Below are positions 24,097 through 48,848 of a DNA stretch of 64,000 bases, in pieces. The DNA comes from Parvibaculum sp. (lineage in GTDB: Bacteria > Pseudomonadota > Alphaproteobacteria > Parvibaculales > Parvibaculaceae). Numbering within the stretch: the first letter of the stretch is position 1; every line of letters begins with the position of its first letter. The notes under the pieces were generated by a model that was not told the DNA's origin, made no database searches, and saw only the letters and a program-made list of their open reading frames with translations. The DNA is taken from contig JAUSMV010000030.1 of NCBI GenBank assembly GCA_030645235.1, positions 1,296,988-1,360,987 on the forward strand, written 5' to 3'. The position numbers were made by a program, and so were the translations under genes.

Positions 24097-25428
24097 ATGC
24101 CATCCTCCATGCCGACCACGAACGATTTGCCCGCTACAGACAATTTGAATGATATTTCGATCACCGGTTGGCACACGCACGATATCCGTTTTCCGACATC
24201 CAGAGGTCTGCACGGTTCGGACGCGATGAACGTCGATCCGGATTATTCAGCAGCCTATATTGTATTGGAAACAAACCGCGGCGGGCTTGAGGGACACGGA
24301 CTGACCTTCACCATCGGGCGCGGCAATGATCTTTGCGTCGCGGCAGCCGAAATGCTTGCCGAAAAACTGGTCGGTAAAAATCTGAAATCCATTACTTCGG
24401 ACATGGCTGGTTTCTGGCGCTTCATCACAGGCGACAGTCAGTTGCGCTGGCTTGGGCCTGACAAGGGCGTTGTGCATCTCGCCACTGGCGCAGTGGTGAA
24501 CGCTGTTTGGGATCTATGGGCGAAGGCAGAACAAAAGCCGGTCTGGCGACTTGTCGCTGATATGACGCCCGCTCAGCTCGTTGCCTGCATCGACTTTCGT
24601 TACCTCAGCAATGCCATCACGCCTGATGAGGCGCTTGCGATTTTTAAGCGGGCCGCAACAAGCAAGGCAGAGCGCATCACAAATCTGATGAAACGCGGCT
24701 ATCCTGCCTACACAACGTCTGCCGGTTGGCTTGGCTATGACGATGCGACAGTGCGGCGTGCAGCGAGCGAGGCTTATGACAAGGGCTTCCGGCATTTCAA
24801 GTTGAAGGTCGGACAGAACATTGAGGATGATAAGCGGCGCGCGCGGATTTTACGCGACGTGATCGGCAATAACGCAAGGCTAATGTTTGACGCCAATCAG
24901 GTATGGGAAGTGAGTGAGGCGATTGCATCCATGGTGCAACTTGCGGAATTCGACCCGTGGTTCATTGAGGAACCGACATCGCCTGATGACATCTTGGGAC
25001 ACGCAGAAATCCGGCGCGCCGTTCATCCCATCAAAGTTGCAACCGGCGAGATGTGTCAGAATCGTATTTTGTTCAAGCAATTCATGCAGGCCGATGCACT
25101 GGACATTGTGCAGATCGACGCCGTGCGTGTCGGCGGACTTAATGAAAATCTTGCGACAATGGTAATGGCGGCAAAATTCGGCAAGCTCATCTGCCCGCAT
25201 GCGGGTGGCGTCGGCCTCTGTGAGTATGCCCAGCACCTGTCGATGATCGATTATCTGGTCATTTCAGGCAGCATGGAGGGGCGCGTTTGCGAATTCGTCG
25301 ACCATTTGCACGAGCATTTTATTGATCCCTGCATTGTCGAGGATGGTCACTACGTAACGCCGCTGGCTGCGGGTTTCAGTATCGAGATGAAGCCACAATC
25401 GATTGCAGACTTTACCCACATCAAATGA
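24097..25428 (+). CDS. fucD: L-fuconate dehydratase
   Basis: DIRFPTS..HGSDAMN.DPDYSAAY, FTIGRGN, YTTSAGWLGY, DANQ, CPHAGGVGLCE, HLHEHF; start codon uncertain. Confidence 0.92.
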   Translation: MPSSMPTTNDLPATDNLNDISITGWHTHDIRFPTSRGLHGSDAMNVDPDYSAAYIVLETNRGGLEGHGLTFTIGRGNDLCVAAAEMLAEKLVGKNLKSITSDMAGFWRFITGDSQLRWLGPDKGVVHLATGAVVNAVWDLWAKAEQKPVWRLVADMTPAQLVACIDFRYLSNAITPDEALAIFKRAATSKAERITNLMKRGYPAYTTSAGWLGYDDATVRRAASEAYDKGFRHFKLKVGQNIEDDKRRARILRDVIGNNARLMFDANQVWEVSEAIASMVQLAEFDPWFIEEPTSPDDILGHAEIRRAVHPIKVATGEMCQNRILFKQFMQADALDIVQIDAVRVGGLNENLATMVMAAKFGKLICPHAGGVGLCEYAQHLSMIDYLVISGSMEGRVCEFVDHLHEHFIDPCIVEDGHYVTPLAAGFSIEMKPQSIADFTHIK

Positions 25429-26413
25429 GCGTGGCGTCAACGACGCTCGCGACTTGTGCGGCAATGTCGCTGATATTTTTTTGACCGAGAATAACGGCGA
25501 GAAGAAGCCGCGCTTTAGGACCGCTTAAGTCTCCACAGAAAATGGCACCCGCACGTTTCAGATCAGCGCCCCCGCCCTGCCCGTAGATCGGCGCGACGCG
25601 CCCCTCGGGTGAGCGTGATGTGATGAGGACCGGAATTTTCTTTGCTGTGAGTTCTGCCACGATGTCTACAATCACAGGTGTTGCGTTGCCACGCCCCGTG
25701 GCGGACAGCACGAGACCTTTAGGCGGATTGTCGGCGATAAGTCGAACGAGGCGCTCGCCGCCACCCAATGTAAGCGTGATGAGATCAACAGGGCGAGCGG
25801 GCGCGACGAGGTCGAAACGCGGATAGGATGCGGGACGGCGCGTAAGACGCACAATGTCCTGATCAACTGCACCCAGTGGACCATTCGATGAACCGAACGT
25901 GTAGCGCCGCGCGCTGTGCATCTTTGTGGCATCACGCGCCGAGAGCACATCGCCGTCAAATGTGATGAGGACACCGAGACTCTGAGCCTGAGTGCTTGCG
26001 GCCACACGGATAGCGTCAGCGAGATTGCGTGGGCCGTCGCGGTCTTGTTCGTCAGCGGCAGCTTGTGCGCCTGTGAACACAACGGGCTTTCCCGGAGCGA
26101 GCATCAGATCAGCGAGGAAGGCTGTTTCCTCCAACGTGTCTGTGCCGTGAGTGACGACAATACCGATAACATCGGCACGAGCGCGTTCTATCACTATGGC
26201 GTTGACGATCAACTCAGCATCATCGAGCGAAAGGCTCGCACTGTTCTTGGCAAGGATGTTGCGGCCTTCGACTTGAGGTAAGTTCTCTACCTTCAGCCTG
26301 CTCAGCAAATCCGTAACACTCAATGAGGTGCTGACCGAGCCTTTGGTGACATCGAAGGCGGACGCAATCGTTCCTCCTGTTGTCAGAACGACAACGCGAC
26401 CAGTCTGCGACAT
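25421..26413 (-). CDS. Asparaginase/glutaminase family protein
   Basis: TTGGTIAS and HGTDTLEE catalytic Thr motifs, ATKMHS. Confidence 0.92.
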   Translation of the reverse strand: MSQTGRVVVLTTGGTIASAFDVTKGSVSTSLSVTDLLSRLKVENLPQVEGRNILAKNSASLSLDDAELIVNAIVIERARADVIGIVVTHGTDTLEETAFLADLMLAPGKPVVFTGAQAAADEQDRDGPRNLADAIRVAASTQAQSLGVLITFDGDVLSARDATKMHSARRYTFGSSNGPLGAVDQDIVRLTRRPASYPRFDLVAPARPVDLITLTLGGGERLVRLIADNPPKGLVLSATGRGNATPVIVDIVAELTAKKIPVLITSRSPEGRVAPIYGQGGGADLKRAGAIFCGDLSGPKARLLLAVILGQKNISDIAAQVASVVDATLI

Positions 26414-26505
26414 GGATCCCCCTCAGCCTTTGCTTCCTTTGTGCGAGCCTCGCATAAAGCGTTCCCCTACAAAAGAGTGTGGACAAGCAAAAAAGGTTCA
26501 CGGGC

Positions 26506-26934
26506 CTAGTTCATATATTGCTCGTTGCCGACAAAGCCGATTTTGGTGACACCTAAACGCTGAGCAGCGGACAGCACCCTAGCGACCACGTCGTACTCAA
26601 CATTACGGTCGGGGCGGAGGTGTACTTCCGGTGCGGGGTCGGCGATGGCGGCAGCGGCGAGCTTATCTTCCAGCTCCAATTCATCGGCGAGTTTGACGCC
26701 GTTCCACCATGAGAAACCTTCCGCATCGACCTGCAACTGCACGACGCTTGGCTTTACGGGTTCCTTTTGCAGTGTCACTGACTGGGGCATATCGAGTTTG
26801 ATCGCGTGCGTTTGCAACGGGATCGTGATGATGAGCATAACGAGAAGTACGAGAAGCACGTCGATCAGGGGTGTCGTATTGATCTCCATCATCGGATCGT
26901 CTTCAGCGCCCGGTCCACCAACATTCATGGCCAT
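26506..26934 (-). CDS. exbD: ExbD/TolR biopolymer transport protein
   Basis: EINTTPLIDVLLVLL. Confidence 0.92.
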   Translation of the reverse strand: MAMNVGGPGAEDDPMMEINTTPLIDVLLVLLVMLIITIPLQTHAIKLDMPQSVTLQKEPVKPSVVQLQVDAEGFSWWNGVKLADELELEDKLAAAAIADPAPEVHLRPDRNVEYDVVARVLSAAQRLGVTKIGFVGNEQYMN

Positions 26935-26947
26935 AATAATTGCTCCT

Positions 26948-27373
26948 CTAGTTGCCGAGCTGGGGTTCTGTAACGAAGCCGACTTTGGCGATGCCGGAGC
27001 GCTGGATGTCGAGGATGAGACGCCCCACAGCTTCAAAGCGCACCGACTGATCGCCGCGCACCTGAATTTCGGGTTGCGGGTCCATGATCGCAAGAGTTTC
27101 GAGCTGCTTCATCATAGCTTCACGATTAGGCACCAATGTCGCGTTCCAGAAATAGCGACCTTCTGCGTCAACAGCGATGGTGATGTTTTTAGGCTCCGTC
27201 ACGTTGATCACGCTACTGGTTTTAGGAAGCGTGATCGGTACAGTCTGAATCGCCACCGGAATGGTGATAAGGAAGATGATGAGCAGGACCAGCATTACGT
27301 CGACAAGTGGCGTTGTATTGATGGTCGAGATAACCTCATCATCGTCGTCGTCGCTCGCAAAACTCATTGCCAT
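26948..27373 (-). CDS. exbD: ExbD/TolR biopolymer transport protein
   Basis: INTTPLVDVMLVLLIIF, VRGD. Confidence 0.92.
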   Translation of the reverse strand: MAMSFASDDDDDEVISTINTTPLVDVMLVLLIIFLITIPVAIQTVPITLPKTSSVINVTEPKNITIAVDAEGRYFWNATLVPNREAMMKQLETLAIMDPQPEIQVRGDQSVRFEAVGRLILDIQRSGIAKVGFVTEPQLGN

Positions 27374-27383
27374 GATGGGCCTT

Positions 27384-28259
27384 TCAGGCAATTTTGCCGG
27401 TGAGGATGCGGAGCTGTACTTCGGTGGCAAAACGACGCGCGCAGCCAGCAATTGCCTTGTTGCGGCGGGTGAGAAGATTGTAACCAAGCACGGCGGGCAC
27501 AGCGACAGCGAGACCGATGGCCGTCATGATGAGACTTTCGCCGACGGGGCCGGCCACTTTGTCGATCGAAGCTTGTCCCGACACGCCAATGGCGACGAGC
27601 GCATGATAGATTCCCCAGACCGTGCCGAACAGACCGACGAAGGGCGCTGTTGAGCCGACGGTGGCGAGAAACGCGAGGCCGCCCTGAAGTTTAGCTGTCA
27701 GATTTTCAACAGCGCGGTGCAGGGCCGCCATCGTCCAATCAGACAGCGTGACTTCGCTTGAGAGACCTTTCGAGAATTGTACTACTGCTTCTTCGCCGCC
27801 TTCGGCGATGCCGCGATAGGTGTTATTGCGCGGCAGCGCCGCGATACCGTCACGTAAAGTCTCGGTTGGCACAAAGAGTTTGATGACACGATTGAACTGG
27901 CTGAACTGACGACGCTGTTCGATGAGCTTGGTAATGAGGAAGTACCATGTCCCCATCGACATGAAACCGAGGATCATCAACGTGCCTTTGGCAACGCTGT
28001 CACCTTGCGCCCAGAGGGCTTCGAGACCATAGGGATTTGCCGGCCCAGGCACCGCTGCGGCGTCGACAGGAGCGGCTAAGGGGTCCGTTGCTGCGACATC
28101 AGCTGTTGCCGGCGTTGCGGCGGGTGTTGTAGCGGCTGCGACCGTGGACTCGGCATCCGCCCGCGCTACGGCCGGGAGGGTCACATAAGCCACACCCAGC
28201 GCCAGCACCATTGCTGCGGTGGCGGATTTGAGGGTCACAAAAATTGCGGGGGTCTTCAT
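27384..28259 (-). CDS. exbB: ExbB (MotA/TolQ/ExbB proton channel)
   Basis: LATVGSTAPFVGLFGTVWGI, VAGPVGESLIMTAIGL. Confidence 0.93.
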   Translation of the reverse strand: MKTPAIFVTLKSATAAMVLALGVAYVTLPAVARADAESTVAAATTPAATPATADVAATDPLAAPVDAAAVPGPANPYGLEALWAQGDSVAKGTLMILGFMSMGTWYFLITKLIEQRRQFSQFNRVIKLFVPTETLRDGIAALPRNNTYRGIAEGGEEAVVQFSKGLSSEVTLSDWTMAALHRAVENLTAKLQGGLAFLATVGSTAPFVGLFGTVWGIYHALVAIGVSGQASIDKVAGPVGESLIMTAIGLAVAVPAVLGYNLLTRRNKAIAGCARRFATEVQLRILTGKIA

Positions 28260-28311
28260 TTGTTTCGTTCCTTGTACTCTCAACAGGTAAGAATTGTTCT
28301 GTGTGGCGTGA

Positions 28312-28938
28312 TCAATCGGTGAGCTTGAAAATCACCGAGTATTTCATCCAATGGCCCGCGGGACGGCCGTCGAGGATCGCGGGTTTAAAGGTCCATTTGC
28401 GGCGCGCATGAATGAGTGCCACTTTGTCGAGCCGCTCAAAGCCGCTTGACGATTCAACCTTGCCGTCTGTTACCTTGCCTGTTTCTGACACATAGAGAAG
28501 GAGGCCTACGCGACCCTCCTCGCCATTGCGACGCGAGGCGGGTGGGTAAGGCGGTTGTGTATTCCCCTGCACCGGGATGGCTTGCGGAATCGCCGGTGCG
28601 GGCTCTCGTACGACGGGCACGACTTCGGGCTTTGCCATCTGCACTTGCCTGATAGTGTTTTGCGGCGCGACCGGCGGTGGCGTGAGCTTCACCTTGGGCG
28701 GTGGCACATAGGCCTCTTTGGGTTTTACAGTTTCTGGTGGCGGTGGCGCAGTCGGAGCGGGCACGGGAGGCTCGGCGATGAGCGCCACTTCCAAAGGTTC
28801 CTGCACCGCTTCGATGACGTCACGCGCGAGACCACTCATCAAAGCCCAGATGAGGAGCGCATGGACGCCGACGGCCACACCCAATCCAATCATCCGGCGC
28901 GTCGGCGGCGGACCATCTGAATAGGCCAACATACTCAT
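28312..28938 (-). CDS. tonB: Energy transducer TonB
   Basis: N-terminal TM with VH, Pro-rich linker, YPPASRRNGEEG, SSGFERLD. Confidence 0.92.
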   Translation of the reverse strand: MSMLAYSDGPPPTRRMIGLGVAVGVHALLIWALMSGLARDVIEAVQEPLEVALIAEPPVPAPTAPPPPETVKPKEAYVPPPKVKLTPPPVAPQNTIRQVQMAKPEVVPVVREPAPAIPQAIPVQGNTQPPYPPASRRNGEEGRVGLLLYVSETGKVTDGKVESSSGFERLDKVALIHARRKWTFKPAILDGRPAGHWMKYSVIFKLTD

Positions 28939-28999
28939 TTCCTATTCCTATCCTTTAGGTGAGCAATGCCGGGGAGCGCATCGCCTGTATTGGACTCAT

Positions 29000-29015
29000 T
29001 GCACGAGAAGTGCCA
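29000..29015 (-). promoter_or_regulatory. Sigma54 (RpoN) -24/-12 promoter of the tonB-exbBDD operon
   Basis: Minus strand TGGCAC-TTCTC-GTGCA, exact GG-N10-GC spacing, about 60 bp upstream of tonB. Confidence 0.65.
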
Positions 29016-29034: not shown

Positions 29035-29556
29035 TCACTTGTCCGCTTCACCCAAACCGACAAAGCCACCGCGGTAATAGACAAGCGGCGCAAGCTCCGG
29101 TGACACGCGTGCAGCACGCACAAAGCCTATGAGAATATCGTGATCACCGCCGCGAAAGCAGTCGTCGAGGTCGCATTCAAGCGAGGCGCTGATGCCAGCA
29201 AACAGAGGTGCGCCATTTTTACCCAAGCTATATTCGACGCCGTCAAACTTTGTTGAACCGTTCGATGTCGCAAATCTCCTGGCAATACTGCCCTGACCTG
29301 CTGAAAGAATGTTCACTGAGAAAAAACCTGCTCGTTTTATGTGCGCCAACGTTTCGCTTTTCAAAGCAAGTGAGACAAGAACGAGCGGCGGCACCAAAGA
29401 AAGCGCGGAAAAAGCACTGACTGTTGTGCCGACTGGGCTTTCGCTCGCCTTGGTTGTGAGCACAGTGACACCGCTTGCAAAGCTGCCCAGCGCGTTGCGA
29501 TAGATTGTCGGGTCCACAATCGTTTCTTTGTCATCAATATTTGTTGCGTATTCCAT
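29035..29556 (-). CDS. Flavin reductase (RutF/HpaC-like)
   Basis: YRNALGSFASGVTVLT, SLVPPLVL, FSVNIL, GGDHDI, PLVYYRG. Confidence 0.92.
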   Translation of the reverse strand: MEYATNIDDKETIVDPTIYRNALGSFASGVTVLTTKASESPVGTTVSAFSALSLVPPLVLVSLALKSETLAHIKRAGFFSVNILSAGQGSIARRFATSNGSTKFDGVEYSLGKNGAPLFAGISASLECDLDDCFRGGDHDILIGFVRAARVSPELAPLVYYRGGFVGLGEADK

Positions 29557-29575: not shown

Positions 29576-30946
29576 TCAGAAAGGATTGTCGCCATAGACA
29601 GGCTTGTAAGAAATCTCACCCGCGTCATCGGGTGCGCGGCCACAAATGGCTAGTGCCGTAAGAGCATAGATGAGAGCGCTGTTTTTCAAATCTTCAGGTG
29701 TCGGCCGCCAGCGCGGCATGCCCGTTGTGACAGCCGGTATGCGATGCATATTGAAGACGTTTTGATCGCGCCACATGCTTGAATAAACAGGGTTGGCGCG
29801 CTGCAATGGTTCATTGAGCGTGAGCTTGGTCGCGTCTGACACAGCGGCGACAAGAGGTGCCACGTCATCAGCATTCGCTTCAAAGCCGTGACGCACCACC
29901 ATCGGTTCGATATCGAAGCCTTCGATATCGAACGTGCGCATCATCGCATTGAGCTCGTGGAGAATATCGGCGGCTTTCTGCTTTGGAGTGAGGCCGACTT
30001 CAAGATAGATCGAGACTATCTCTGTGCCGGTGCCAAACGAATAGGGGATGCCCGCCTTGATGGAATCGATTTGTGTTTTGGGAATAGCAACACCGCCTTC
30101 GCTTTCATAGCGATGGCGCTCCGGCATCGCCCTGCCCCATTTATGAAGCGTGTCGATGATGGGCCCCAAACGATAAATAGGGTTGGGATGCTCACCGATA
30201 TTTTCGGGGTGCTCCATGATCGGCGTGAATATGCCCTGACCATAGATGCGGATGCGAAAGACAGCGTAGCCTGAGCCGATCCATGTGAGGCCGAAATCGC
30301 AGCCCTCTGCAGCAATAGCATAATCAGGTGCGACGCCGCCGTGATGAAAGAGGTAATGTGCGCCAATGTCTTTGCCGAGATAGTCGACGCCTTTACGGTC
30401 CTCAATCGGCTCAGGGCCGATCTCGCCGGGACAAGCGGTGAGATAGAGCTTTCCCGCAAGCGGGATTCCTGCCTTGCGCAAGGCTTTCGCGGCGATCATG
30501 AAACAGCTCATGGGGCCGCGATCATTTGCAATCGGATAGCCAAAGAGCTTGCCGTCTTCAAGCCAGCATTCGAGCCATTCGCGATTATCGAGCGTTTGCG
30601 AGCGATACTTAGCACTATCGAGATCGGGCTCGTAAGTCGGGCTTTCTGTATCTAAATGTGCGGTGAAAAGGAGATTAGCTCCCTCGGCCTTCCCCCCATA
30701 TTCTCCGATGACGTTTTGGCGCTCCGGTGTTGCACCGACGCTGCGCGGAGAAAATCCCTCGCGCTTCATCCAGTCAAACACATACGCGCTGGCCGCTGCT
30801 TCGCTTTTGGAGGGGCTGGGAATATTGCCAAGTTCAAGCGCCAGCGCCGTCAGTTCATCGCTGTCAATTGCAGCTTCGAGGGCGGCATGCTCAGCTTCGC
30901 TCACCTTGTAAGGAGCTTTGCCTTTGATGGTGAAATAGCCACTCAT
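29576..30946 (-). CDS. M20/ArgE-DapE family metallo-amidohydrolase, atypical
   Basis: AHLDT, ANDRG, PGEIG, AAEG; the C-terminal metal-binding His motif is absent. Confidence 0.75.
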   Translation of the reverse strand: MSGYFTIKGKAPYKVSEAEHAALEAAIDSDELTALALELGNIPSPSKSEAAASAYVFDWMKREGFSPRSVGATPERQNVIGEYGGKAEGANLLFTAHLDTESPTYEPDLDSAKYRSQTLDNREWLECWLEDGKLFGYPIANDRGPMSCFMIAAKALRKAGIPLAGKLYLTACPGEIGPEPIEDRKGVDYLGKDIGAHYLFHHGGVAPDYAIAAEGCDFGLTWIGSGYAVFRIRIYGQGIFTPIMEHPENIGEHPNPIYRLGPIIDTLHKWGRAMPERHRYESEGGVAIPKTQIDSIKAGIPYSFGTGTEIVSIYLEVGLTPKQKAADILHELNAMMRTFDIEGFDIEPMVVRHGFEANADDVAPLVAAVSDATKLTLNEPLQRANPVYSSMWRDQNVFNMHRIPAVTTGMPRWRPTPEDLKNSALIYALTALAICGRAPDDAGEISYKPVYGDNPF

Positions 30947-36780: not shown

Positions 36781-37156
36781 GTTTCCGTGCGCGTAAGACG
36801 CGTTTGATCAAGTGGCTTTAGGGCAACGGTTACGAGATTGCTCGTCGGCGAACCGGACAGCGCATGCGTAAAATGACGTAAGGCTTGAGAAAATGTGGTT
36901 AAGGGCGGTGTGAGCCGATGCGCGGCGGCGCGGGGGTCACAGACGTCAAACACGCGCTGAAAAATGTAGCAACGCTGTTTGAGTGCCAATTTGTTGATCA
37001 ACCCGCCCTTGTGCCAACACAACGAAAAAATCCACACAATTCATTGGGCGCTTCCATACAAGACCAGCCAAAGAATGAAGACTTAACTGCGCTCACACAT
37101 TGTTAGAAGTGACGCTGAGTCTGAAGCGACACTGGGTAAGAAGTGACGCATAGAGC

Positions 37157-39769: not shown

Positions 39770-40104
39770 AAACCCAAATCCTCTACAGCGCACCTGAACC
39801 CAACGAACCATGCTCACCCCTGAATGCTAAACAAAAGCCGTTCCACATGCTTGTCTCTACGCGCCCGCGCATTTGTCTCGCAGCACATTTTCTGGCAGCC
39901 GTCGCCGTAAGCTGCTGCTGCTTTTCGCGGCGTTTGCACGCCCGTTAAATAGGCAAAGGGGTACGCGCGTGGACCTTTGGCAATAGTTTGGACGCGTGGC
40001 GCCAAGCGGACGGGACCGCTTTCTGCCTAATCTGATGTCTCGCCCGATGAGGCCCGATATTTGCTCTGTCGTTCAACGACAGTTGCGTATGAGCGGAGAC
40101 AAGA

Positions 40105-43291: not shown

Positions 43292-43489
43292 AGCACCGTT
43301 ATCTGTACCTTTGGTCTGCGGGCACGCTTCTTGCGAAGTCTCACATGTGCGACGCAGCCAAAGGTGTCCTTCTGCCAGTTTTTTGCAAAAGGCATTGAGG
43401 AGACCATTTGAGCTGCACAAATTTTTGGCAAGAGGCGCGGCTATGAGCAGTGAATGCCTTAGGCCATTGTAATGAGTGTGTGAGACCTT

Positions 43490-45868
43490 ATGGATGCTTG
43501 GCGCTTTTCTACTGAATCTTATCCTAAGCCGGACCGCTACGAAGCTTGGCAGGAGGCACTGGAGCGCCTTGCGCTGAAGCCCACGGGCCACTCGACCAAT
43601 GACGGTGCCTACGGCGTCTTGTCTGCCGTAATCGCACAGTCGGGCATGAGCTTCACGCGGCTCACGTCTACACCGCAAGACCTAAGCGCCATTCAGGAGA
43701 TCAACAAGGAGGCAGGCAAGGACGGCGTTTGGGTGACGTCGCTGCTCGAAGGCCGTGTCACGTTCCATGATGCTGGCCACGACATAAAAGCGTCGGCCGG
43801 TGACATCGTTTATGGCGCTGTCGGATCTGACACGACCTTCACGCTCGAAACCAACTGCCGCATGGTCATCGTCTACATCCCGCGCTCGGCCTTTCGCCCG
43901 CGCCTGATGGCACCCCTTCCCACAAAGGTTATTCATCTGTCGGGCCGTGCAGGCATCGGCCATGTGCTGGCGGGCTTTCTCGCCTCTGTCTCCGAAGCGC
44001 TGGAGGATCTGAGCGTCGATCAACTGCGCCCCATTGAAATGGCGCTACCTGAATTTTTAATGGCGGGAATTTTCAAACAAGCTGACACGCGCGCGCTCGG
44101 TGGTGCAGCGGGCGTGCGCGCGGCGCTGCTTCACCGCGTGTGCCAGACAGTTGAAGCACAACTTGGCGATCCGGACCTTTCGCTCACCCAAATTGCGGAG
44201 AGCCACGGTATTTCACCGCGCTATGTGCAGAAACTTTTCGAAAATGTGGGGCAGAGCTTCACGCGCTATATCCGTTATCGCCGTCTCGAACGGTGCCGCT
44301 ATGACCTTGAAAGCCCTATTCACAATCAGCTATCCATCTCAGATATTTGTTTCCGCTGGGGCTTCAACGATGCGGCACATTTCAGCCGCGCTTTTCGCGA
44401 TCAGTATAATATCTCACCGCGTGAGTATCGTCGTGCATCTCCCGCCGAACGAGAGGCGGGAGATGCATGGGTAGCCAACCGCGGTAAGCCTGCCGAGCGC
44501 GTCGGCGCGCAGCGTGATGATTCACGCCAGTACGAGCATGAGCCGGAAGGCGAGCTGGCCGTGGCCTCCCCGCCTGCGATGACGCCTGAACCTGAGTTCG
44601 TCAGCGTGCCGTTGTCAGAAGACGGTGCAAGGCATCACTATTTGCCAGCGACTGCCAACACAGTACATTGGGGCTATTTCAGCCGCTCGATCCCACCGGT
44701 CCTCAACATGCGCACGGGCGATTTCGTCACCATTGAAACGCTGACGCAGCATGCCAACGACGACCATGAACGCATGATCGACAATGATGCGGGCGCCGAA
44801 AGCGTATTTCATTGGACGAAAGAAGGTAAAAATGTCGACCGACGCGGCGCAGGGCCAACCGATGCATCAATCTATGGCCGTGGCTCCGGCGAAGGTTTCG
44901 GCGTTCATATTTGTACCGGACCCATTTACATTCAGGACGCGATGCCTGGAGATATTGTTGAGCTTCGTGTGCTCGACATTCAACCGCGCCCTTGCGCCAG
45001 CGAGCGCTTCGAGGGACGACACTTTGGCAGCAATGCCGCCGCGTGGTGGGGATTTCACTATAGTGAATTGTTGACACAGCCGACGAACCGCGAAGTCATC
45101 ACGATCTATGAAATTGAAAAACGGCGCAGCGGCGATGTGGCGCGCGCAGTTTACAATTACCGCTGGACACCGCAAACCGATCCATTCGGTGTCGTTCATT
45201 CGATCATCGACTATCCAGGCGTACCGGTTGATCACACGACGATTGAGAAGAATTTTGATGTCCTCAAAAATATCGAGATACCATTGCGGGCGCATTTTGG
45301 TGTGGTGGCGCTCGCCCCTGATCACTGGGGCGCAGTGGATAGCGTGCCACCCGCGCATTTCGGCGGCAATATTGACAACTGGCGGCTAGGTGCGGGGGCT
45401 TGTGTCTTTCTGCCTGTCTCCGTTCCCGGTGGACTTTTATCAGTTGGTGATCCCCATGCCTCGCAAGGTGACTCAGAGCTATGCGGCACAGCGATTGAAT
45501 GTTCATTGACGGGTGTGTTTCAGGTGGTCCTACACAAGAAACGCGAGCTACCCGGTAAGCTCGTCGATCTCGATTATCCGCTCATTGAAACTGATGATGA
45601 ATGGGTGATCACGGGATTCTCTCATCCAAATTATCTGAAGGAACTCGGACGCAACGCGCAGACGGAAGTTTACAAGCAGGCTTCCGTTGACCTTGCGATG
45701 CGCGACGCATTTCGCAAGACGCGGCGCTTTTTGATGACCACTAAGGGGTTAACCGAAGACGAGGCGATTTCGCTCATGTCAGTCGCCGTTGATTTTGGCA
45801 TCACGCAGATTGTGGATGGCAATTGGGGCGTTCATGCCGTGATCAGAAAATCCATGTTTCGCGACTGA
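43490..45868 (+). CDS. Fusion of an AraC-family regulator (FeaR-like sensor plus HTH) and an acetamidase/formamidase domain
   Basis: ISPRYVQKLF...SISDICFRWGFNDAAHFSRAFRDQYNISPREYR, then HWGYF, GGNIDNW, GDPHASQGDSELCGTAIE in one reading frame. Confidence 0.9.
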   Translation: MDAWRFSTESYPKPDRYEAWQEALERLALKPTGHSTNDGAYGVLSAVIAQSGMSFTRLTSTPQDLSAIQEINKEAGKDGVWVTSLLEGRVTFHDAGHDIKASAGDIVYGAVGSDTTFTLETNCRMVIVYIPRSAFRPRLMAPLPTKVIHLSGRAGIGHVLAGFLASVSEALEDLSVDQLRPIEMALPEFLMAGIFKQADTRALGGAAGVRAALLHRVCQTVEAQLGDPDLSLTQIAESHGISPRYVQKLFENVGQSFTRYIRYRRLERCRYDLESPIHNQLSISDICFRWGFNDAAHFSRAFRDQYNISPREYRRASPAEREAGDAWVANRGKPAERVGAQRDDSRQYEHEPEGELAVASPPAMTPEPEFVSVPLSEDGARHHYLPATANTVHWGYFSRSIPPVLNMRTGDFVTIETLTQHANDDHERMIDNDAGAESVFHWTKEGKNVDRRGAGPTDASIYGRGSGEGFGVHICTGPIYIQDAMPGDIVELRVLDIQPRPCASERFEGRHFGSNAAAWWGFHYSELLTQPTNREVITIYEIEKRRSGDVARAVYNYRWTPQTDPFGVVHSIIDYPGVPVDHTTIEKNFDVLKNIEIPLRAHFGVVALAPDHWGAVDSVPPAHFGGNIDNWRLGAGACVFLPVSVPGGLLSVGDPHASQGDSELCGTAIECSLTGVFQVVLHKKRELPGKLVDLDYPLIETDDEWVITGFSHPNYLKELGRNAQTEVYKQASVDLAMRDAFRKTRRFLMTTKGLTEDEAISLMSVAVDFGITQIVDGNWGVHAVIRKSMFRD

Positions 45869-46760
45869 GATGAGAGCCGAGGCGCGCCAAGGCCTCGACG
45901 GGCGCCCTTGGGCCCATGTGCTCGCAGGCAAGTGCCGCCACACGTGCGGCGATGGTCATGGCTTTGCCGAAGGAAGCGCCTGACATGTCGGCAAAGAGAA
46001 AGCCTGCATGAAAGGCATCACCCGCACCCGTCGTATCAACCACATGACAGGGCGCGGCCGGAACGATCACTATGTCGCCACCATGGAGCGCACCCAATGC
46101 TCCAGCACTGCCCATCGTCACGATATGGCGATGTCCGCCAAGAGCGGCGAGCGCAGCGAGCATGTCAGCTGGCGCGTCCGAGCCTGCAATTTCTGCGGCT
46201 ACCGATTTGGGCACGATGGCTGTCTCAACAAGCGTCAAAAGTTCCAATGTTTGCGCAGTGACCGCCTCAGCATCGCATGTTGTCGCAATGCCTCGCTTAG
46301 CTGCCTCGCGCGCAATGACGACGGAGGCTGCGGTCTCGTGGCCGTCGAAATAAACATGCGTAAACTTAGCCCAATCGGCCTCAGAAATCCGGCCTGAATG
46401 AGGGGGAAAGGCGAGAGAAGCCGTCTCGATGATAGATCTTTCGCCGTTTTCACTATCAACAAAAATATAGGCGCATGGGTTTTGATGACCATCCGCCCGC
46501 TCAACGGCGCTCGCATCGACGCCTGCACTTCCCAGAGCGTTCAACACACGCGCGCCACTGCTGTCCGCACCCACAACTCCAGCATAAGTGACTGGGATGC
46601 CAAGGGCTGACAACGTCACCGCCGCATTCAAGCACTGGCCGCCAATCACAATGACGGGCTCTTGTGTGCGTTGTTTGGCATCACTCGCTAGCGCCGACAA
46701 TTTTACCTTAAAGATGTAGTCCACGCTGTTACGCCCGACACAGAGAACTCTCGACGCCAT
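45843..46760 (-). CDS. PfkB/ribokinase-family sugar kinase
   Basis: GGQCLNAAVTL, VTMGSAG, DTTGAGDAFHAG; SD GGAGG. Confidence 0.92.
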   Translation of the reverse strand: MASRVLCVGRNSVDYIFKVKLSALASDAKQRTQEPVIVIGGQCLNAAVTLSALGIPVTYAGVVGADSSGARVLNALGSAGVDASAVERADGHQNPCAYIFVDSENGERSIIETASLAFPPHSGRISEADWAKFTHVYFDGHETAASVVIAREAAKRGIATTCDAEAVTAQTLELLTLVETAIVPKSVAAEIAGSDAPADMLAALAALGGHRHIVTMGSAGALGALHGGDIVIVPAAPCHVVDTTGAGDAFHAGFLFADMSGASFGKAMTIAARVAALACEHMGPRAPVEALARLGSHLSRETWIF

Positions 46761-46967
46761 AATCACCTCCTTTACATGCAAGCTCACTCTAGCTCTGGCA
46801 CATGCGTCATGCTCGGACAGAGGTGCTCGAAAAATTGGATCAGATACCCGATATCTGAGCTTTCACATTTTGTGAGGTGTATTGCACAAGTTTCGGGGCG
46901 TATGGGCACCTGCATAGAACTTCAATCCGCCACAAAATGAACCTTCAAAACTATGTTCAGGGGTTGA

Positions 46968-48848
46968 GTGATGAGACAGTCGGGCGCAACACGGCGAGAG
47001 GCATTGAAGGCCTTGACGGCCAGCGGGCTGGCAACCCTTTCATTGCCGGCGCTCACCGCTCCTGCTTCAGCTACACAAGGCACTCCCTTTCAGCACGGTG
47101 TAGCGAGCGGCGCCCCTGAAGAGCAGGCTGTTATTCTCTGGACACGCGTCACGGTTGAAGGTGCACGTGACCTCACTTTGCGCTGGCAGGTAGCGTTGGA
47201 TGACACGTTTGAAACCCTCGTGCTCGAAGGCGAGATTGTGGCCCGCGCATCTCATGACCACACTGCCAAAATCGATGTACGCGAACTCAAAGCCGGCCAT
47301 CGTTATGCCTATCGCTTTCTGCTTGGCGACGCGCGTTCACCGACTGGATACACACGGACGCTTGCAGGCGTGGATGCCATGCGGCTCGTACTCGGTGTGG
47401 TCTCCTGCTCACACTACGGCTTTGGCTTTTTCAATGCCTATAGAGAGCTTGGTAAACGCGATGACCTTGATGCCATCGTGCATCTGGGTGACTACATTTA
47501 TGAATACGGACCGGATGGCTATGGCGGCGATGTGGCTAAGGAGATCGGCCGCGAGCATGAACCGGCGCATGAAATTCTGACGCTAGCCGATTATCGCGTA
47601 CGCTTTGCACAGTATCGCCGTGACCCTGATTTGCAGGCAGCGCATGCAGCCGCTCCCTTCATCGCTATGTGGGACGATCACGAGACAGCTAATAATTCCT
47701 GGGCTGCAGGGGCAGACAATCACAATCCGGAAAAAGAGGGTTCATGGGAAGGGCGACGCGATGCGGCGCTTAGAGCCTATTTCGAATGGATGCCGATGCG
47801 TGACCCCAAACCCGGCAAAGCGTTTCATACGCTCCACAGAACTTATGAGATGGGGCGCCTTGCCAGCTTGCACACAATCGAGACGCGGCTCACCGCGAGG
47901 AGCCAAGAAGTGAACTATGAAGACGAAATGCTCTATGCCGAAACGCATTATGACGTCTCAGATGCTCGCCATCCTGTACCTGTTACGCCCGAAGGAGCAT
48001 CGCTCTTGCCCGAAGCGTATGTCGAAATATTGAAAACGCCTTTTTCTGAAAACGATGGCATGCCTGTTTATGATTATGCACGCACCAAACTATGGATGAC
48101 ATCGGCCCTGCCAGAGGGATATTCTTATCGTCCTGATACGGATCGTTTTCGTCGCGAAGTGCTGGGTGACCCCAAACGCATGCTGATGGGGACAGCACAA
48201 CTGGGCTGGTTGGCCCAAGAACTGAAAACGTCGCGCGCCAAGGGTACGCCTTGGCAGATTCTTGGCAATCAGATCGTAATGGCACGCATGGACGCACCGG
48301 ATTTTACCAAAGCTTTCCCCGAGGACGTGATCGCACCTGCAATCGCTACGAATAAGTACAACCGCCAATGGGTTGAGCGAACAAAACTAGGCCTCCCGAT
48401 CAGCCCTGGCGCATGGGACGGCTATCCCGCTGACCGGCAGCGGCTTTACAAGGTCGTGCGCGAGGCGAAAGCCAATTTCATTGTTCTGTCAGGTGATTCA
48501 CATCAGTTCTGGGCGAACGATCTGCGCGAAACGCCGCAAGGAAACCGCATCGGTATTGAGTTTGCCACAAGCAGTGTCAGCTCCAAAGGAGGATACGACT
48601 ATCTTGCTGCTGACCCGCGCGTTTATGACATCGCCGAGGAAGTGTTGCAGCGCGACGTGCCGGAAATCCATTGGTGTGATACGCGCCATCGTGGATTTAT
48701 TGTGTTGGAAGTCACAGCGGAGAGCATTTGCGCCGACTATATGGCTGTCTCGACTGTAAAGTCGCGTGACTACACCGTGACGCGCCTGCGTCGGTTTGAG
48801 GTTTCTCAAGAAGGCGCAGGCATTTTATCGGAATTGAAAGAAGTGTAA
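46968..48848 (+). CDS. phoD: PhoD-family alkaline phosphatase/phosphodiesterase, Tat-exported
   Basis: TRREALK, FQHGVASG, HLGDYIYEY, WDDHETANN, WDGYP, SGDSH. Confidence 0.93.
   Translation: MMRQSGATRREALKALTASGLATLSLPALTAPASATQGTPFQHGVASGAPEEQAVILWTRVTVEGARDLTLRWQVALDDTFETLVLEGEIVARASHDHTAKIDVRELKAGHRYAYRFLLGDARSPTGYTRTLAGVDAMRLVLGVVSCSHYGFGFFNAYRELGKRDDLDAIVHLGDYIYEYGPDGYGGDVAKEIGREHEPAHEILTLADYRVRFAQYRRDPDLQAAHAAAPFIAMWDDHETANNSWAAGADNHNPEKEGSWEGRRDAALRAYFEWMPMRDPKPGKAFHTLHRTYEMGRLASLHTIETRLTARSQEVNYEDEMLYAETHYDVSDARHPVPVTPEGASLLPEAYVEILKTPFSENDGMPVYDYARTKLWMTSALPEGYSYRPDTDRFRREVLGDPKRMLMGTAQLGWLAQELKTSRAKGTPWQILGNQIVMARMDAPDFTKAFPEDVIAPAIATNKYNRQWVERTKLGLPISPGAWDGYPADRQRLYKVVREAKANFIVLSGDSHQFWANDLRETPQGNRIGIEFATSSVSSKGGYDYLAADPRVYDIAEEVLQRDVPEIHWCDTRHRGFIVLEVTAESICADYMAVSTVKSRDYTVTRLRRFEVSQEGAGILSELKEV

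What the first reader, a model, noticed from the sequence alone, without database searches (positions are those of the whole stretch)
25421..48848. Sigma54-controlled nitrogen-scavenging island for an unknown N-heterocycle
Two operons have -24/-12 promoters (36615-36630 and 29000-29015). NtrC-like 17-mers occur at 36735, 36984, 39939 and 43414, and the sites at 36735 and 39935-39955 share TGCAC..CCGTTAA..GGCA. The island combines a TBDR and MFS with their own TonB motor, a RutA-like/RutB-like/flavin reductase trio, and several N-releasing hydrolases (asparaginase, M20, two acetamidases). It also has four more oxygenases (two TauD, Rieske, DODA). It lacks rutC, rutD, rutE, rutG and rutR, so it is not the E. 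coli Rut pathway. It looks like an uncharacterised route for ring-opening and deaminating a modified nucleobase, nucleoside or similar compound.
Basis: partly seen in the sequence, partly recalled or inferred. Interest (0 to 1): 0.72.

Follow-up and report, generated by a model that had tools for sequence, protein, structure and literature searches.

The report
Conserved nitrogen-regulated ring-degradation gene island
This is a real, widely shared but uncharacterised bacterial gene island that most likely imports a nitrogen-rich ring compound (my untested best guess is a flavin-like molecule with a uracil-type ring fused to an aromatic ring), strips out its nitrogen by chemistry related to the E. 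coli uracil (Rut) pathway, and in this genus is switched on through sigma-54 promoters.

Summary
All the genes named are present, and both -24/-12 promoters sit at the stated coordinates. Both promoters are invariant in related Parvibaculaceae genomes. I found a third conserved sigma-54 promoter (43321-43334) in front of the AraC-acetamidase regulator gene.

The "M20" protein is a full-length homologue of NaaA, a hydrolase that deaminates an aromatic amine lying next to a carboxylate.

The sub-operons co-occur across Alpha-, Beta- and Gammaproteobacteria and on a Kozakia plasmid. Within Parvibaculum they are present or absent as one unit. The island also runs past the stated end, to a conserved VOC gene at 48852-49343.

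The asparaginase is not a conserved member, and the TonB motor is specific to Parvibaculaceae. PfkB and PhoD are conserved only within the genus.

The genome has no true RutA, RutC or RutD. The RutA-like, RutB-like and NaaA-like trio, followed by Rieske, extradiol and amidase genes, matches the reaction logic of the published lumichrome pathway, but with different enzymes for ring opening.

My best reading is oxidative, Rut-like removal of a uracil-type ring fused to an aromatic system, then cleavage of the remainder. The substrate is inferred, and NtrC control is inferred by elimination. No publication on this island was found.

The parts
34057..36552 (-). TonB-dependent outer-membrane receptor, first gene of the main sigma-54 operon
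   Evidence: Pfam Plug + TonB_dep_Rec. In Gammaproteobacteria and Betaproteobacteria a Tsx channel takes its place.
32724..34007 (-). MFS transporter (monocarboxylate / oxalate-formate-like)
   Evidence: Pfam MFS_1. Best NCBIfam hits are the L-lactate and oxalate/formate MFS families, all below cut-off. Found next to the LLM in 73 of 80 loci.
31608..32672 (-). RutA-like luciferase-like flavin monooxygenase (sister family, not RutA)
   Evidence: TIGR03612 scores 251.6 bits against a cut-off of 498.3. The best solved relative is E. coli RutA at 209 bits. Family members from four other lineages all score 249-276 bits.
30943..31611 (-). RutB/BiuH-like isochorismatase-family cysteine hydrolase
   Evidence: Pfam Isochorismatase. 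RutB 95 bits and BiuH 98 bits, both below cut-off. PDB relatives are biuret hydrolase and RutB.
29576..30961 (-). NaaA-like (M20-related) aminohydrolase
   Evidence: No Pfam hit. Full-length match to 5-nitroanthranilate aminohydrolase 5K8P, E 2.6e-80. Present in 51 of 80 loci.
29035..29556 (-). NAD(P)H:flavin reductase, partner of the LLM
   Evidence: Pfam Flavin_Reduct. ATG at 29556 gives 173 aa, the same length as in the P. lavamentivorans-like locus.
36615..36630 (-). Sigma-54 promoter 1 (TGGCATAGGCCTTGCT), 62 nt upstream of the TBDR start
   Evidence: TGGCA and TTGC are invariant in 7 Parvibaculaceae loci.
36735..36751 (.). Conserved dyad TGCACCCGTTAACGGCA, about 105 bp upstream of promoter 1 (candidate enhancer site)
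   Evidence: Conserved as TGCC-N9/10-GCA in the aligned loci. One of 16 genome-wide TGCAC-N7-YGGCA sites, two of which lie in this island.
36854..36865 (-). 12-mer ATGCGCTGTCCG shared only with the glnK upstream region
   Evidence: Occurs only twice in the 3.8-Mb genome. The other copy is upstream of the glnK sigma-54 promoter, beside a near-copy.
29000..29015 (-). Sigma-54 promoter 2 (TGGCACTTCTCGTGCA) upstream of tonB
   Evidence: GGCA and TGCA are invariant in 7 loci.
26509..28938 (-). tonB-exbB-exbD1-exbD2 energising system
   Evidence: Pfam; two ExbD paralogues. Linked to the island only in Parvibaculaceae.
25421..26413 (-). Asparaginase/glutaminase-family gene at the operon tail (not conserved)
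   Evidence: Pfam Asparaginase. Absent from all 80 loci. Only a 38-aa remnant remains in the closest relative.
37157..38011 (+). TauD/TfdA-family Fe(II)/2-oxoglutarate dioxygenase 1
   Evidence: Pfam TauD. 62-81% identical orthologues sit in clusters of three classes.
38043..38888 (+). Short-chain dehydrogenase
   Evidence: Pfam adh_short, NF004824. ATG at 38043. Orthologues are present in Caulobacterales and Parvibaculaceae clusters.
38954..39817 (-). TauD-family dioxygenase 2 (closest to taurine dioxygenase, below cut-off)
   Evidence: NF007104 scores 260 bits against 313; PDB TauD 215 bits.
40050..40065 (+). Candidate weak sigma-54-like element AGGCCCGATATTTGCT upstream of the Rieske gene
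   Evidence: The GG-N10-GC spacing is conserved in the alignment of 9 loci. The -24 element is non-canonical, so this is uncertain.
40105..41313 (+). Rieske non-haem iron oxygenase, alpha subunit only
   Evidence: Pfam Rieske + Ring_hydroxyl_A. Nearest relatives are CntA and GbcA. A VanB-type reductase is encoded in the Kozakia and Alteromonas clusters. In this genome the reductase homologue lies 115 kb away.
41313..42113 (+). YgiD/DODA LigB-type extradiol dioxygenase
   Evidence: NF007914 scores 317 bits, above the 233 cut-off.
42212..43291 (+). Acetamidase/formamidase-family amidase (Amd1), the most conserved island enzyme
   Evidence: Pfam FmdA_AmdA. 73-78% identity across classes.
43321..43334 (+).
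   Evidence: Invariant in 6 Parvibaculum genomes. Sigma-54 motifs also precede the AraC gene in Pseudoduganella, Alteromonas and Halioxenophilus loci.
43414..43430 (.). Conserved dyad TGCACAAATTTTTGGCA, downstream of promoter 3
   Evidence: CTGCACA...GCA is invariant in 6 genomes.
43490..45868 (+). One-component regulator: FeaR-like AraC sensor + HTH fused to an acetamidase-like domain (Amd2)
   Evidence: Pfam. A single ORF of about 800 aa is also found in Paraglaciecola and in 6 other Parvibaculum genomes. Amd2 is 36% identical to Amd1 and keeps the shared motifs.
45843..46787 (-). PfkB-family (ribokinase-like) sugar kinase; a member of the island at genus level only
   Evidence: Pfam PfkB. 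The position between the fusion gene and VOC is conserved in 3-4 Parvibaculum genomes. Absent from other lineages.
46968..48848 (+). Tat-exported PhoD-type phosphatase/phosphodiesterase; a member at genus level only
   Evidence: Pfam PhoD. Twin-arginine leader. Conserved position in G013, G005 and G006.
48852..49343 (-). 163-aa VOC/glyoxalase-fold protein, a core island gene lying beyond the finding's stated end
   Evidence: Pfam Glyoxalase_6. 72% identical to the cluster-embedded orthologue in Caulobacter. Also present in the Kozakia plasmid cluster. 84% mean column identity.

Best explanation
The region is an accessory, horizontally mobile catabolic island with two modules.

Module A comprises an outer-membrane gate, an MFS transporter, the RutA-like monooxygenase with its flavin reductase, the RutB-like hydrolase and the NaaA-like aminohydrolase. 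It imports a compound that carries a uracil-type (pyrimidine-2,4-dione) ring fused to an aromatic system. The proposed steps are:
1. The monooxygenase opens the ring oxidatively at the amide, giving a ureido-aryl carboxylate.
2. The isochorismatase-family enzyme removes the carbamoyl group as carbamate, leaving an amino group next to a carboxylate on an aromatic ring.
3. That enamine is aromatic and stable, so it cannot hydrolyse spontaneously as in the Rut pathway. The NaaA-like enzyme replaces the amino group with a hydroxyl. Two nitrogens are released.

Module B comprises two TauD-type dioxygenases, an SDR, a VOC protein, a Rieske oxygenase, a LigB-type extradiol dioxygenase and an amidase. 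It dealkylates or hydroxylates what is left, cleaves it, and hydrolyses the small amide fragment that holds the remaining nitrogen. The AraC regulator fused to an amidase-like domain probably senses that amide.

The substrate I favour is a flavin or alloxazine (riboflavin, FMN or lumichrome), with a pteridine or folate second. In Parvibaculum the uptake/ring-opening operon, the TonB motor and the regulator gene each have a sigma-54 promoter, most likely activated by NtrC under nitrogen limitation.

Shown: gene identities, promoter conservation and co-occurrence. Inferred: every reaction, the substrate, and the identity of the activator.
For: A functional unit:
- In 80 genome loci found through the LLM, isochorismatase (58), NaaA-like (51), TBDR (46), TauD2 (46), TauD1 (37), Rieske (35), DODA (32) and Amd1 (24, many loci being cut off at 10 kb) lie within 10 kb. 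These loci span Parvibaculaceae, Caulobacterales, Alteromonadales and Variovorax.
- The Kozakia plasmid carries the whole set, plus a VanB-type reductase.
- Among 31 relatives, LLM, Rieske and the AraC-Amd2 fusion are present together in the same 6 genomes. They are absent from 24 genomes. One genome has the fusion alone, at a contig edge.
- Module A occurs alone, flanked by IS elements, in a Pseudomonas chromosome and an Acinetobacter plasmid.

Chemistry:
- The LLM's nearest family is RutA.
- The hydrolase is nearest to RutB and biuret hydrolase.
- The 461-aa protein is homologous along its whole length to NaaA, which deaminates an ortho-amino aryl carboxylate.
- The published lumichrome pathway uses the same three reaction types in the same order: ring opening to a ureido-quinoxaline carboxylate, removal of the urea moiety, then hydrolysis of 3-amino-quinoxaline-2-carboxylate. 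A Rieske oxygenase, an extradiol dioxygenase and oxamate release follow (PMC12746152 and PMC12752717).
- That paper states that the genes of Stadtman's Pseudomonas RF riboflavin route are unknown and that variants may exist.
- A Tat-exported PhoD and a ribokinase-like PfkB inside the Parvibaculum island fit a phosphorylated substrate bearing a ribityl or ribosyl group.

Regulation:
- There are three conserved sigma-54 promoters.
- The genome has one rpoN and five enhancer-binding proteins: NtrC (with GAFTGA), NtrX (without), FlbD, a TacA-like protein and one unknown.
- A TGCAC-N9-GCA site and a unique 12-mer are shared with the glnK promoter region.
- All ten proteins of the two sigma-54 operons fall at or below the 30th percentile for side-chain nitrogen.
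- Caulobacter NtrC lacks GAFTGA and acts with sigma-70 (bioRxiv 10.1101/2023.06.06.543975). This fits the absence of sigma-54 promoters in Caulobacter versions of the island.
Against: - There is no experimental or expression evidence. The genome is a groundwater MAG with no RNA runs.
- I could not test whether LumI and LumM belong to the same families as the isochorismatase and the NaaA-like protein.
- The island has no P450, ThDP decarboxylase or molybdenum hydroxylase, so several lumichrome-pathway steps have no assigned counterpart here.
- The Rieske enzyme is closest to N-demethylase/monooxygenase types (CntA, GbcA), not to ring-dihydroxylating types.
- Tsx channels in the gammaproteobacterial versions, together with PfkB and PhoD, equally fit a nucleoside or nucleotide.
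- Environmental flavins are very dilute for use as a nitrogen source.
- Membrane proteins are nitrogen-poor in any case, which weakens the composition argument.
- One conserved dyad lies downstream of its promoter.
- The unknown enhancer-binding protein (contig C41) cannot be excluded as the activator.
Confidence: 0.5

Rival explanations
1. The substrate is an ordinary or modified nucleobase or nucleoside, such as xanthine, methylated purines, or thymine and its oxidation products. The TauD and Rieske enzymes would act as N-demethylases or hydroxylases, and the Rut-like trio would open the pyrimidine part.
For: - Tsx nucleoside-channel homologues replace the TBDR in Pseudomonas, Xenorhabdus, Photorhabdus and Thalassolituus.
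- PfkB (ribokinase-like) and an exported PhoD lie in the Parvibaculum island.
- The Rieske enzyme is nearest to N-demethylase-type enzymes.
- From memory: fungal XanA, a TauD-family enzyme, hydroxylates xanthine.
- Opening xanthine by this route would give 4-aminoimidazole-5-carboxylate, which is also an ortho-amino carboxylate.
Against: - A LigB-type extradiol dioxygenase, an SDR and a VOC protein are co-conserved with the trio in three classes and on a plasmid. None has an obvious role on a purine or pyrimidine skeleton.
- The MFS is not of the nucleoside or nucleobase permease families.
- There is no nucleoside phosphorylase, nucleoside hydrolase or RutG-type permease in the island.
Confidence: 0.2
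2. The substrate is a pteridine or folate-type compound. A TauD enzyme would cleave the C9-N10 link, the amino-pterin would be deaminated to a lumazine, the Rut-like enzymes would open the dione ring, and Rieske/DODA would degrade the p-aminobenzoate part.
For: The arguments for a fused pyrimidine ring apply here as for the best explanation. Folate contains a benzene ring and several nitrogens, which would give work to both modules. M20-type enzymes are known to act on p-aminobenzoyl-glutamate (from memory).
Against: NaaA's precedent is an amino group next to a carboxylate, not the 2-amino group of a pterin. No enzyme in the island is specific to pterins or folates, and no glutamate-processing gene is conserved. 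This reading is inference only.
Confidence: 0.15
3. The region is a sulfur-scavenging (sulfonate or sulfone) regulon. The TauD enzymes and an SfnG/SsuD-like LLM with its flavin reductase would release sulfite, with sigma-54 control as in the Pseudomonas sfn system.
For: - There are two TauD-family genes, one close to taurine dioxygenase.
- The LLM's second-best family is SfnG, at 175 bits.
- An SsuE-like FMN reductase sits in related clusters.
- An arylsulfatase lies beside a remnant cluster in Caulobacter.
- From memory: the sfn genes depend on sigma-54.
Against: - The LLM, isochorismatase, MFS, TauD and Rieske proteins are sulfur-rich (86th-99th percentile for Cys+Met). Sulfate-starvation proteins are usually the opposite.
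- Four conserved C-N hydrolases (isochorismatase, NaaA-like, Amd1, Amd2) have no role in desulfonation.
- RutA scores higher than SfnG (251 against 175 bits).
- There is no sulfonate ABC transporter and no CysB- or Cbl-type regulator.
Confidence: 0.05
4. The region is a chance neighbourhood of unrelated operons with no single pathway or regulon.
For: - Gene order is shuffled between lineages.
- Module A occurs alone in some genomes.
- Xenorhabdus and Photorhabdus keep only Tsx-MFS-LLM.
- Base composition does not set the region apart from its flanks.
Against: The genes are linked in three proteobacterial classes and on a plasmid despite rearrangement. Presence and absence match exactly within the genus. 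Conserved promoter and operator blocks are shared between the intergenic regions.
Confidence: 0.05

Closest known systems
E. coli Rut pathway (rutABCDEFG with RutR; sigma-54/NtrC dependent)
   Same: Both have a two-component flavin monooxygenase of the RutA lineage with a flavin reductase, followed by an isochorismatase-family hydrolase. Both use sigma-54 promoters and have a likely role in nitrogen scavenging.
   Different: - RutA, RutB and RutF all score below the equivalog cut-offs (251/498, 95/378 and 64/255 bits).
- The genome has no RutC or RutD, and the island has no RutE, RutG or RutR.
- A NaaA-like aminohydrolase stands where RutC would act.
- A TBDR or Tsx gate, an MFS transporter and a whole second module (TauD x2, SDR, VOC, Rieske, DODA, amidases) are added.
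Lumichrome (lum) catabolic cluster of Nocardioides simplex (PMC12746152)
   Same: The order of reaction types is the same: open the uracil ring to a ureido-aryl carboxylate, remove the ureido carbon and nitrogen, hydrolyse the ortho-amino group, then a Rieske oxygenase, an extradiol dioxygenase and release of an oxamic-type amide. [quoted passage not shown]
   Different: - Ring opening in the lum cluster is hydrolytic (LumH, 80 kDa). Here it would be oxidative, by an LLM.
- The island has no P450 (LumU), no ThDP decarboxylase (LumKL) and no molybdenum hydroxylase (LumJ).
- The Rieske enzyme here has only an alpha subunit.
- TauD, VOC and acetamidase genes, and the AraC-amidase regulator, are not described in the lum cluster.
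- Sequence homology to the Lum proteins could not be tested.
Stadtman's Pseudomonas RF riboflavin pathway (biochemistry only; genes unknown)
   Same: As summarised in PMC12746152, the pyrimidine ring is degraded first, the ribityl chain is removed later, and a quinoxalinedione is cleaved to a pyrone with urea and oxamide as products. The island contains plausible enzymes for each of these steps, including amidases for oxamide and a sugar kinase.
   Different: No gene or protein sequence from that organism exists for comparison. The assignment is purely by chemical logic.
NaaA, 5-nitroanthranilate aminohydrolase of Bradyrhizobium sp. JS329 (PDB 5K8M-5K8P)
   Same: The 461-aa protein shows full-length homology (273 bits, residues 37-444 against 21-425). 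It is proposed to carry out the same reaction type, hydrolytic replacement of an aryl amino group next to a carboxylate.
   Different: It is only a distant relative. It sits in a different operon context, with no NaaB or NaaC. Its substrate is unknown and its catalytic residues were not examined.

Membership tests
E. coli-type Rut pathway | RutA equivalog (TIGR03612 at or above 498.3 bits) | tested here: not met
   251.6 bits. Orthologues in four other lineages score 249-276 bits. No other candidate exists in the genome.
E. coli-type Rut pathway | RutB (TIGR03614) and RutF (TIGR03615) equivalogs | tested here: not met
   RutB 95.4 bits against 378; RutF 64.3 bits against 254.75.
E. coli-type Rut pathway | RutC and RutD present | tested here: not met
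   The best genome-wide scores are 44.7 bits (cut-off 169.1) and 53.4 bits (cut-off 238.5). The control search found both above cut-off in two control genomes.
E. coli-type Rut pathway | RutE, RutG permease and RutR repressor in the cluster | tested here: not met
   No nitroreductase, xanthine/uracil permease or TetR-type gene lies between 25421 and 49343. These were not searched genome-wide.
E. coli-type Rut pathway | Sigma-54 promoter with NtrC activation | tested here: inconclusive
   The sigma-54 promoters are conserved. NtrC is the most plausible activator by elimination, but its binding could not be tested.
Two-component group C flavin monooxygenase (LLM + flavin reductase) | Bac_luciferase fold plus a separately encoded flavin reductase | tested here: met
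   PF00296 E 1.4e-52 and PF01613 E 4.6e-38 in the same operon.
NaaA-type M20-like aminohydrolase | Full-length homology to the solved NaaA | tested here: met
   E 2.6e-80, query residues 37-444 against chain residues 21-425 of 425.
NaaA-type M20-like aminohydrolase | Metal-binding and catalytic residues, and activity on ortho-amino aryl carboxylates | not tested
   Residue-level comparison and enzyme assay were not done.
Nocardioides lum (lumichrome) cluster | Homologues of LumH, LumI and LumM | not testable with these tools
   The paper and its supplement give no sequences or accession numbers. No handle to an N. simplex genome could be obtained.
Nocardioides lum (lumichrome) cluster | P450 LumU, ThDP decarboxylase LumKL and molybdenum hydroxylase LumJ | tested here: not met
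   None of these families appears among the island genes.
Sigma-54-dependent promoter | GG and GC dinucleotides at the -24/-12 spacing, upstream of an operon, conserved in relatives, with rpoN in the genome | tested here: met
   rpoN.
Sulfate-starvation (ssu/tau/sfn) regulon | Sulfur-poor proteins, a sulfonate transporter and a Cbl/CysB/SfnR-type regulator | tested here: not met
   The proteins are sulfur-rich. No such transporter or regulator is present.

The most novel reading that the evidence does not exclude
This island is the missing genetic basis of an oxidative, 'pyrimidine-ring-first' route of flavin (riboflavin, FMN or lumichrome) catabolism, like the one Stadtman described biochemically in Pseudomonas RF. 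In that reading a flavin-dependent RutA-like enzyme destroys the flavin's own uracil-type ring. The route would be widespread in aquatic and soil Proteobacteria, and in Parvibaculum it would be wired to NtrC/sigma-54 so that vitamins are mined for nitrogen.
Probability: 0.25. Interest if true: 0.8.

Novelty: new variant of a known kind. Interest (0 to 1): 0.62.

Why it matters
If the reading is right, it would have four consequences.
- It would define a second, oxidative way for bacteria to dismantle fused pyrimidinedione rings such as flavins or pteridines. It would also give genes to a pathway known only biochemically since the 1960s.
- It would extend RutA-type chemistry beyond uracil. It would also give NaaA-type aromatic deaminases a mainstream physiological role, as the step that replaces RutC when the enamine is aromatic.
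- The AraC regulator fused to an amidase-like domain would be a clear example of an enzyme paralogue recruited as a ligand sensor.
- The island is present in cultivable strains (Parvibaculum lavamentivorans, Caulobacter, Alteromonas, Variovorax), so all of this can be tested directly.

Tried and rejected
- Sulfur-scavenging reading: rejected. The proteins are sulfur-rich and the conserved hydrolases act on C-N bonds.
- 'Uracil pathway with rutCD elsewhere': rejected. The genome has no RutA, RutC or RutD.
- Riboswitch or other RNA control: no Rfam hit in the window.
- Expression data: only DNA runs from groundwater metagenomes hold the sequence.
- Literature: four searches found no paper on this gene set.
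- The Lachnospiraceae 'fin' riboflavin neighbourhood is unrelated. It encodes enzymes of other families: a RibF homologue, an aldolase, dehydrogenases and glycine-reductase-like subunits. This is so even though one NaaA-like relative comes from a Lachnospiraceae MAG.
- Reaching the N. simplex Lum protein sequences failed. The paper's supplement has none. Twenty cluster look-ups among NaaA-like representatives gave no actinobacterial name. Genome search does not accept a taxon name.
- Structure of the VOC protein: the AlphaFold model had mean pLDDT 60, with almost half the residues below 50, so no fold search was run. A sequence search of solved structures gave nothing useful.
- The 124-aa ORF at 36663-37037 has no family hit. 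It lies in the conserved regulatory intergenic region and is treated as spurious.

Full report
WHAT IS THERE

The window lies in a 3.83-Mb, 86-contig genome (G000:C58) assembled from a groundwater metagenome. The organism is a Parvibaculum: the LLM is 87% identical to that of P. lavamentivorans DS-1.

- Minus strand, main operon: TonB-dependent receptor (34057-36552), MFS transporter (32724-34007), luciferase-like monooxygenase (LLM, 31608-32672), isochorismatase-family hydrolase (30943-31611), a 461-aa protein with no Pfam hit (29576-30961) and a flavin reductase (29035-29556).
- Minus strand, second operon: tonB, exbB, two exbD paralogues and an asparaginase-family gene.
- Other side of the 600-bp control region: TauD-SDR (+), a second TauD (-), Rieske-DODA-acetamidase (+), a 792-aa AraC-acetamidase fusion (+), PfkB (-) and PhoD (+).

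The flanks are unrelated. Sugar-acid catabolism lies to the left, and a ChrR/ECF-sigma and cyclopropane-fatty-acid synthase cluster lies to the right.

PROMOTERS

The two -24/-12 elements read TGGCATAGGCCTTGCT (36615-36630, minus strand) and TGGCACTTCTCGTGCA (29000-29015, minus strand).
- They are the only two matches to TGGCAYN5KTGCW in the 64 kb, where 0.42 are expected.
- Each lies 60-80 nt upstream of an operon start.
- In alignments of seven Parvibaculaceae loci whose intergenic DNA is otherwise only 36-49% conserved, the GGCA and TTGC/TGCA cores are invariant.

A third promoter, GGCACGCTTCTTGC (43321-43334, plus strand), lies between the acetamidase gene and the AraC-acetamidase gene. 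It is invariant in six Parvibaculum genomes.

Sigma-54-type motifs also precede the AraC gene in Pseudoduganella, Alteromonas and Halioxenophilus loci. A weaker GG-N10-GC element at 40050-40065, upstream of the Rieske gene, is conserved but non-canonical.

WHO ACTIVATES THE PROMOTERS

The genome has one rpoN, about 1 kb to the left of the window. It has five enhancer-binding proteins:
- NtrC (712 bits, GAFTGA intact);
- NtrX (no GAFTGA);
- FlbD;
- a TacA-like regulator;
- one protein of unknown role, on contig C41.

By elimination NtrC is the likely activator. Three further observations fit this.
- The canonical NtrC target glnK has a sigma-54 promoter with a TGCAC-N9-GCA site about 80 bp upstream. 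That site resembles the island dyads at 36735 and 43414.
- The 12-mer ATGCGCTGTCCG occurs only twice in the genome: upstream of glnK and upstream of the island's main promoter. This was noticed after the fact and is only suggestive.
- All ten proteins of the two sigma-54 operons fall at or below the 30th percentile of genome ORFs for side-chain nitrogen, while the module B proteins are average.

Sigma-54 promoters are absent from the Caulobacter and Phenylobacterium versions of the island. This fits the report that Caulobacter NtrC lacks GAFTGA and works with sigma-70. NtrC binding and nitrogen control remain inferences.

IS IT ONE UNIT?

A pattern scan of one genome per species returned 80 loci encoding the LLM family. 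tblastn with every island protein gave these counts within 10 kb:

| Protein | Loci of 80 |
|---|---|
| MFS | 73 |
| Isochorismatase | 58 |
| 461-aa NaaA-like protein | 51 |
| TBDR | 46 |
| TauD2 | 46 |
| Flavin reductase | 39 |
| TauD1 | 37 |
| Rieske | 35 |
| DODA | 32 |
| SDR | 31 |
| Acetamidase (Amd1) | 24 |

- Many loci are cut off at the 10-kb limit, so the counts are minima.
- The loci span Parvibaculaceae, Caulobacterales, Alteromonadales and Variovorax, and gene order is shuffled between them.
- Amd1 is 73-78% identical across classes.
- Clustering of all unlabelled ORFs revealed one more core gene, a 163-aa VOC-fold protein. The window's copy at 48852-49343 is 72% identical to the Caulobacter one, so the island runs past the stated end.
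- A mobilizable Kozakia plasmid carries a divergent full set, with a VanB-type reductase for the Rieske enzyme.
- In 31 relatives, the LLM, the Rieske enzyme and the AraC-acetamidase fusion are present together in the same six Parvibaculum genomes. They are absent from twelve other same-genus genomes and from twelve genomes of other families. One genome shows only the fusion, at a contig edge.

Not every gene belongs to the conserved unit.
- The asparaginase is in none of the 80 loci, and only a 38-aa remnant survives in the closest relative.
- tonB-exbBD is linked to the island only in Parvibaculaceae.
- PfkB and PhoD are absent elsewhere. Within Parvibaculum, however, they keep their place between the fusion gene and the VOC gene.

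Module A (gate, MFS, LLM, isochorismatase, 461-aa protein, reductase, AraC) occurs alone and flanked by IS elements in a Pseudomonas chromosome and an Acinetobacter plasmid. There a Tsx channel replaces the TBDR. Xenorhabdus and Photorhabdus keep only Tsx-MFS-LLM.

WHAT THE ENZYMES SAY

- The LLM belongs to a sister family of RutA: 251.6 bits against a cut-off of 498.3. SfnG is second at 175 bits, and E. coli RutA is the best solved relative. Orthologues from Caulobacter, Pseudomonas and Xenorhabdus score the same.
- The hydrolase is equally distant from RutB and from biuret hydrolase.
- The 461-aa 'M20' protein is a full-length homologue of NaaA (E 2.6e-80). NaaA is the metal-dependent enzyme that replaces the amino group of 5-nitroanthranilate, which lies next to the carboxylate, with a hydroxyl.
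- The genome has no RutA, RutC or RutD above cut-off. The idea that this is a uracil pathway completed by genes elsewhere is therefore not supported.

MECHANISM PROPOSED (INFERENCE)

In the Rut pathway, RutA opens uracil to ureidoacrylate and RutB releases carbamate and aminoacrylate. Aminoacrylate then hydrolyses spontaneously or with the help of RutC.

If the C5-C6 bond of the uracil ring is part of an aromatic ring, the same two steps leave a stable aromatic amine next to a carboxylate. That is exactly the type of substrate NaaA handles. This explains why a NaaA-like gene, rather than rutC, always follows the RutB-like gene.

The recently reconstituted lumichrome pathway of Nocardioides simplex uses the same sequence of reaction types (PMC12746152 and PMC12752717):
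1. LumH opens the ring to a ureido-quinoxaline carboxylate.
2. LumI removes the urea moiety.
3. LumM hydrolyses 3-amino-quinoxaline-2-carboxylate.
4. A Rieske oxygenase opens the quinoxalinedione and oxamate is released.
5. An extradiol dioxygenase cleaves the resulting catechol.

The island offers a counterpart for most of these steps:

| Lum step | Proposed counterpart here |
|---|---|
| LumH | LLM with its reductase |
| LumI | Isochorismatase |
| LumM | NaaA-like protein |
| LumABCD | Rieske oxygenase |
| LumE | DODA |
| Oxamate/oxamide hydrolysis | Acetamidase |

A TauD enzyme might stand in for the molybdenum hydroxylase. From memory, fungal XanA replaces xanthine dehydrogenase in the same way. 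A second TauD could remove an N-alkyl (ribityl) chain.

The regulator's amidase-like domain is 36% identical to Amd1 and keeps the shared motifs. It is a single ORF in Paraglaciecola as well. It probably senses the small amide product.

Within Parvibaculum, an exported PhoD and a ribokinase-like PfkB would suit FMN or FAD and the released sugar.

The same paper notes that the genes of Stadtman's Pseudomonas RF riboflavin route are unknown. In that route the pyrimidine ring goes first, the ribityl chain is removed later, and urea and oxamide are formed.

CAVEATS

- I could not obtain the Lum protein sequences, so homology to LumI and LumM is untested.
- The island lacks a P450, a ThDP decarboxylase and a molybdenum hydroxylase.
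- The Rieske enzyme is nearest to demethylase types.
- Tsx, PfkB and PhoD fit nucleosides equally well.
- Flavins are scarce in the environment.

I therefore hold 'uracil-type ring fused to an aromatic system' at roughly 0.6 and 'flavin/alloxazine' at roughly 0.35-0.4. Pteridine/folate and purine/modified-base readings are the main rivals. The sulfur-scavenging reading is disfavoured, because the key proteins are sulfur-rich and four conserved enzymes are C-N hydrolases.

NOVELTY

Four literature searches found no description of this gene set. Earlier notes of this scan, on other genomes, reached similar guesses. They are not independent evidence.

All the parts belong to known families and the logic is Rut-like, so I class the island as a new variant of a known kind. 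It is directly testable in cultivable carrier strains.

Noticed in passing
window 43490-45868: The AraC regulator fused to a complete acetamidase-like domain is a single ORF of about 800 aa in Paraglaciecola (Gammaproteobacteria) as well, and in six other Parvibaculum genomes. It always lies next to a free-standing paralogue. This looks like an enzyme paralogue recruited as the ligand sensor of a one-component regulator.
   Followed up: partly
L006, L018-L038 (Xenorhabdus and Photorhabdus loci): These insect pathogens keep only a Tsx-MFS-LLM trio and lack the hydrolases. In Xenorhabdus bovienii the trio lies beside flagellar genes. The LLM alone would only open a ring, which could mean detoxification or modification of a uracil-like compound and not nitrogen scavenging.
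   Followed up: no
G000:C58:1294573-1296066 (about 1 kb left of the window start): The genome's only rpoN gene lies about 30 kb from the island that carries three sigma-54 promoters.
   Followed up: no
window 36854-36865 and G000:C58:138351-138382: The 12-mer ATGCGCTGTCCG occurs only twice in the 3.8-Mb genome: upstream of the glnK sigma-54 promoter (beside a near-copy 20 bp away) and upstream of the island's main sigma-54 promoter. It is a possible shared activator site.
   Followed up: partly
window 37040-37065 and 39840-39870: Both TauD genes are preceded, 40-60 bp from their starts, by a similar conserved box (GGGCGC-N8-ACAAG on the coding strand, seen as GGTCTTG...GCGCCC in the alignments). 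This suggests a common operator or promoter element distinct from the sigma-54 sites.
   Followed up: partly
L090 (Acinetobacter baumannii plasmid p2DB053) and L007 (Pseudomonas sp. ADAK13): Module A (MFS-LLM-isochorismatase-NaaA-like-flavin reductase plus an AraC-type gene) is flanked by IS66 and IS3 elements. This points to recent horizontal movement of the ring-opening module on its own.
   Followed up: no
L066 (Caulobacter vibrioides DSM 9893): A remnant of the island, consisting only of the LLM and the isochorismatase, sits beside an arylsulfatase-like gene. The rest of the cluster is missing from this locus.
   Followed up: no
window 26509-27373: There are two tandem ExbD paralogues (about 35-38% identical to each other) downstream of exbB, as in P. 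lavamentivorans. The automatic ORF list merges or extends them.
   Followed up: yes
L005, L014 and Alteromonadales loci: Other Parvibaculum clusters and the Alteromonadales clusters carry an SsuE-like NADPH:FMN reductase (PF03358) between the Rieske and TauD genes. This genome has no homologue of it anywhere.
   Followed up: partly
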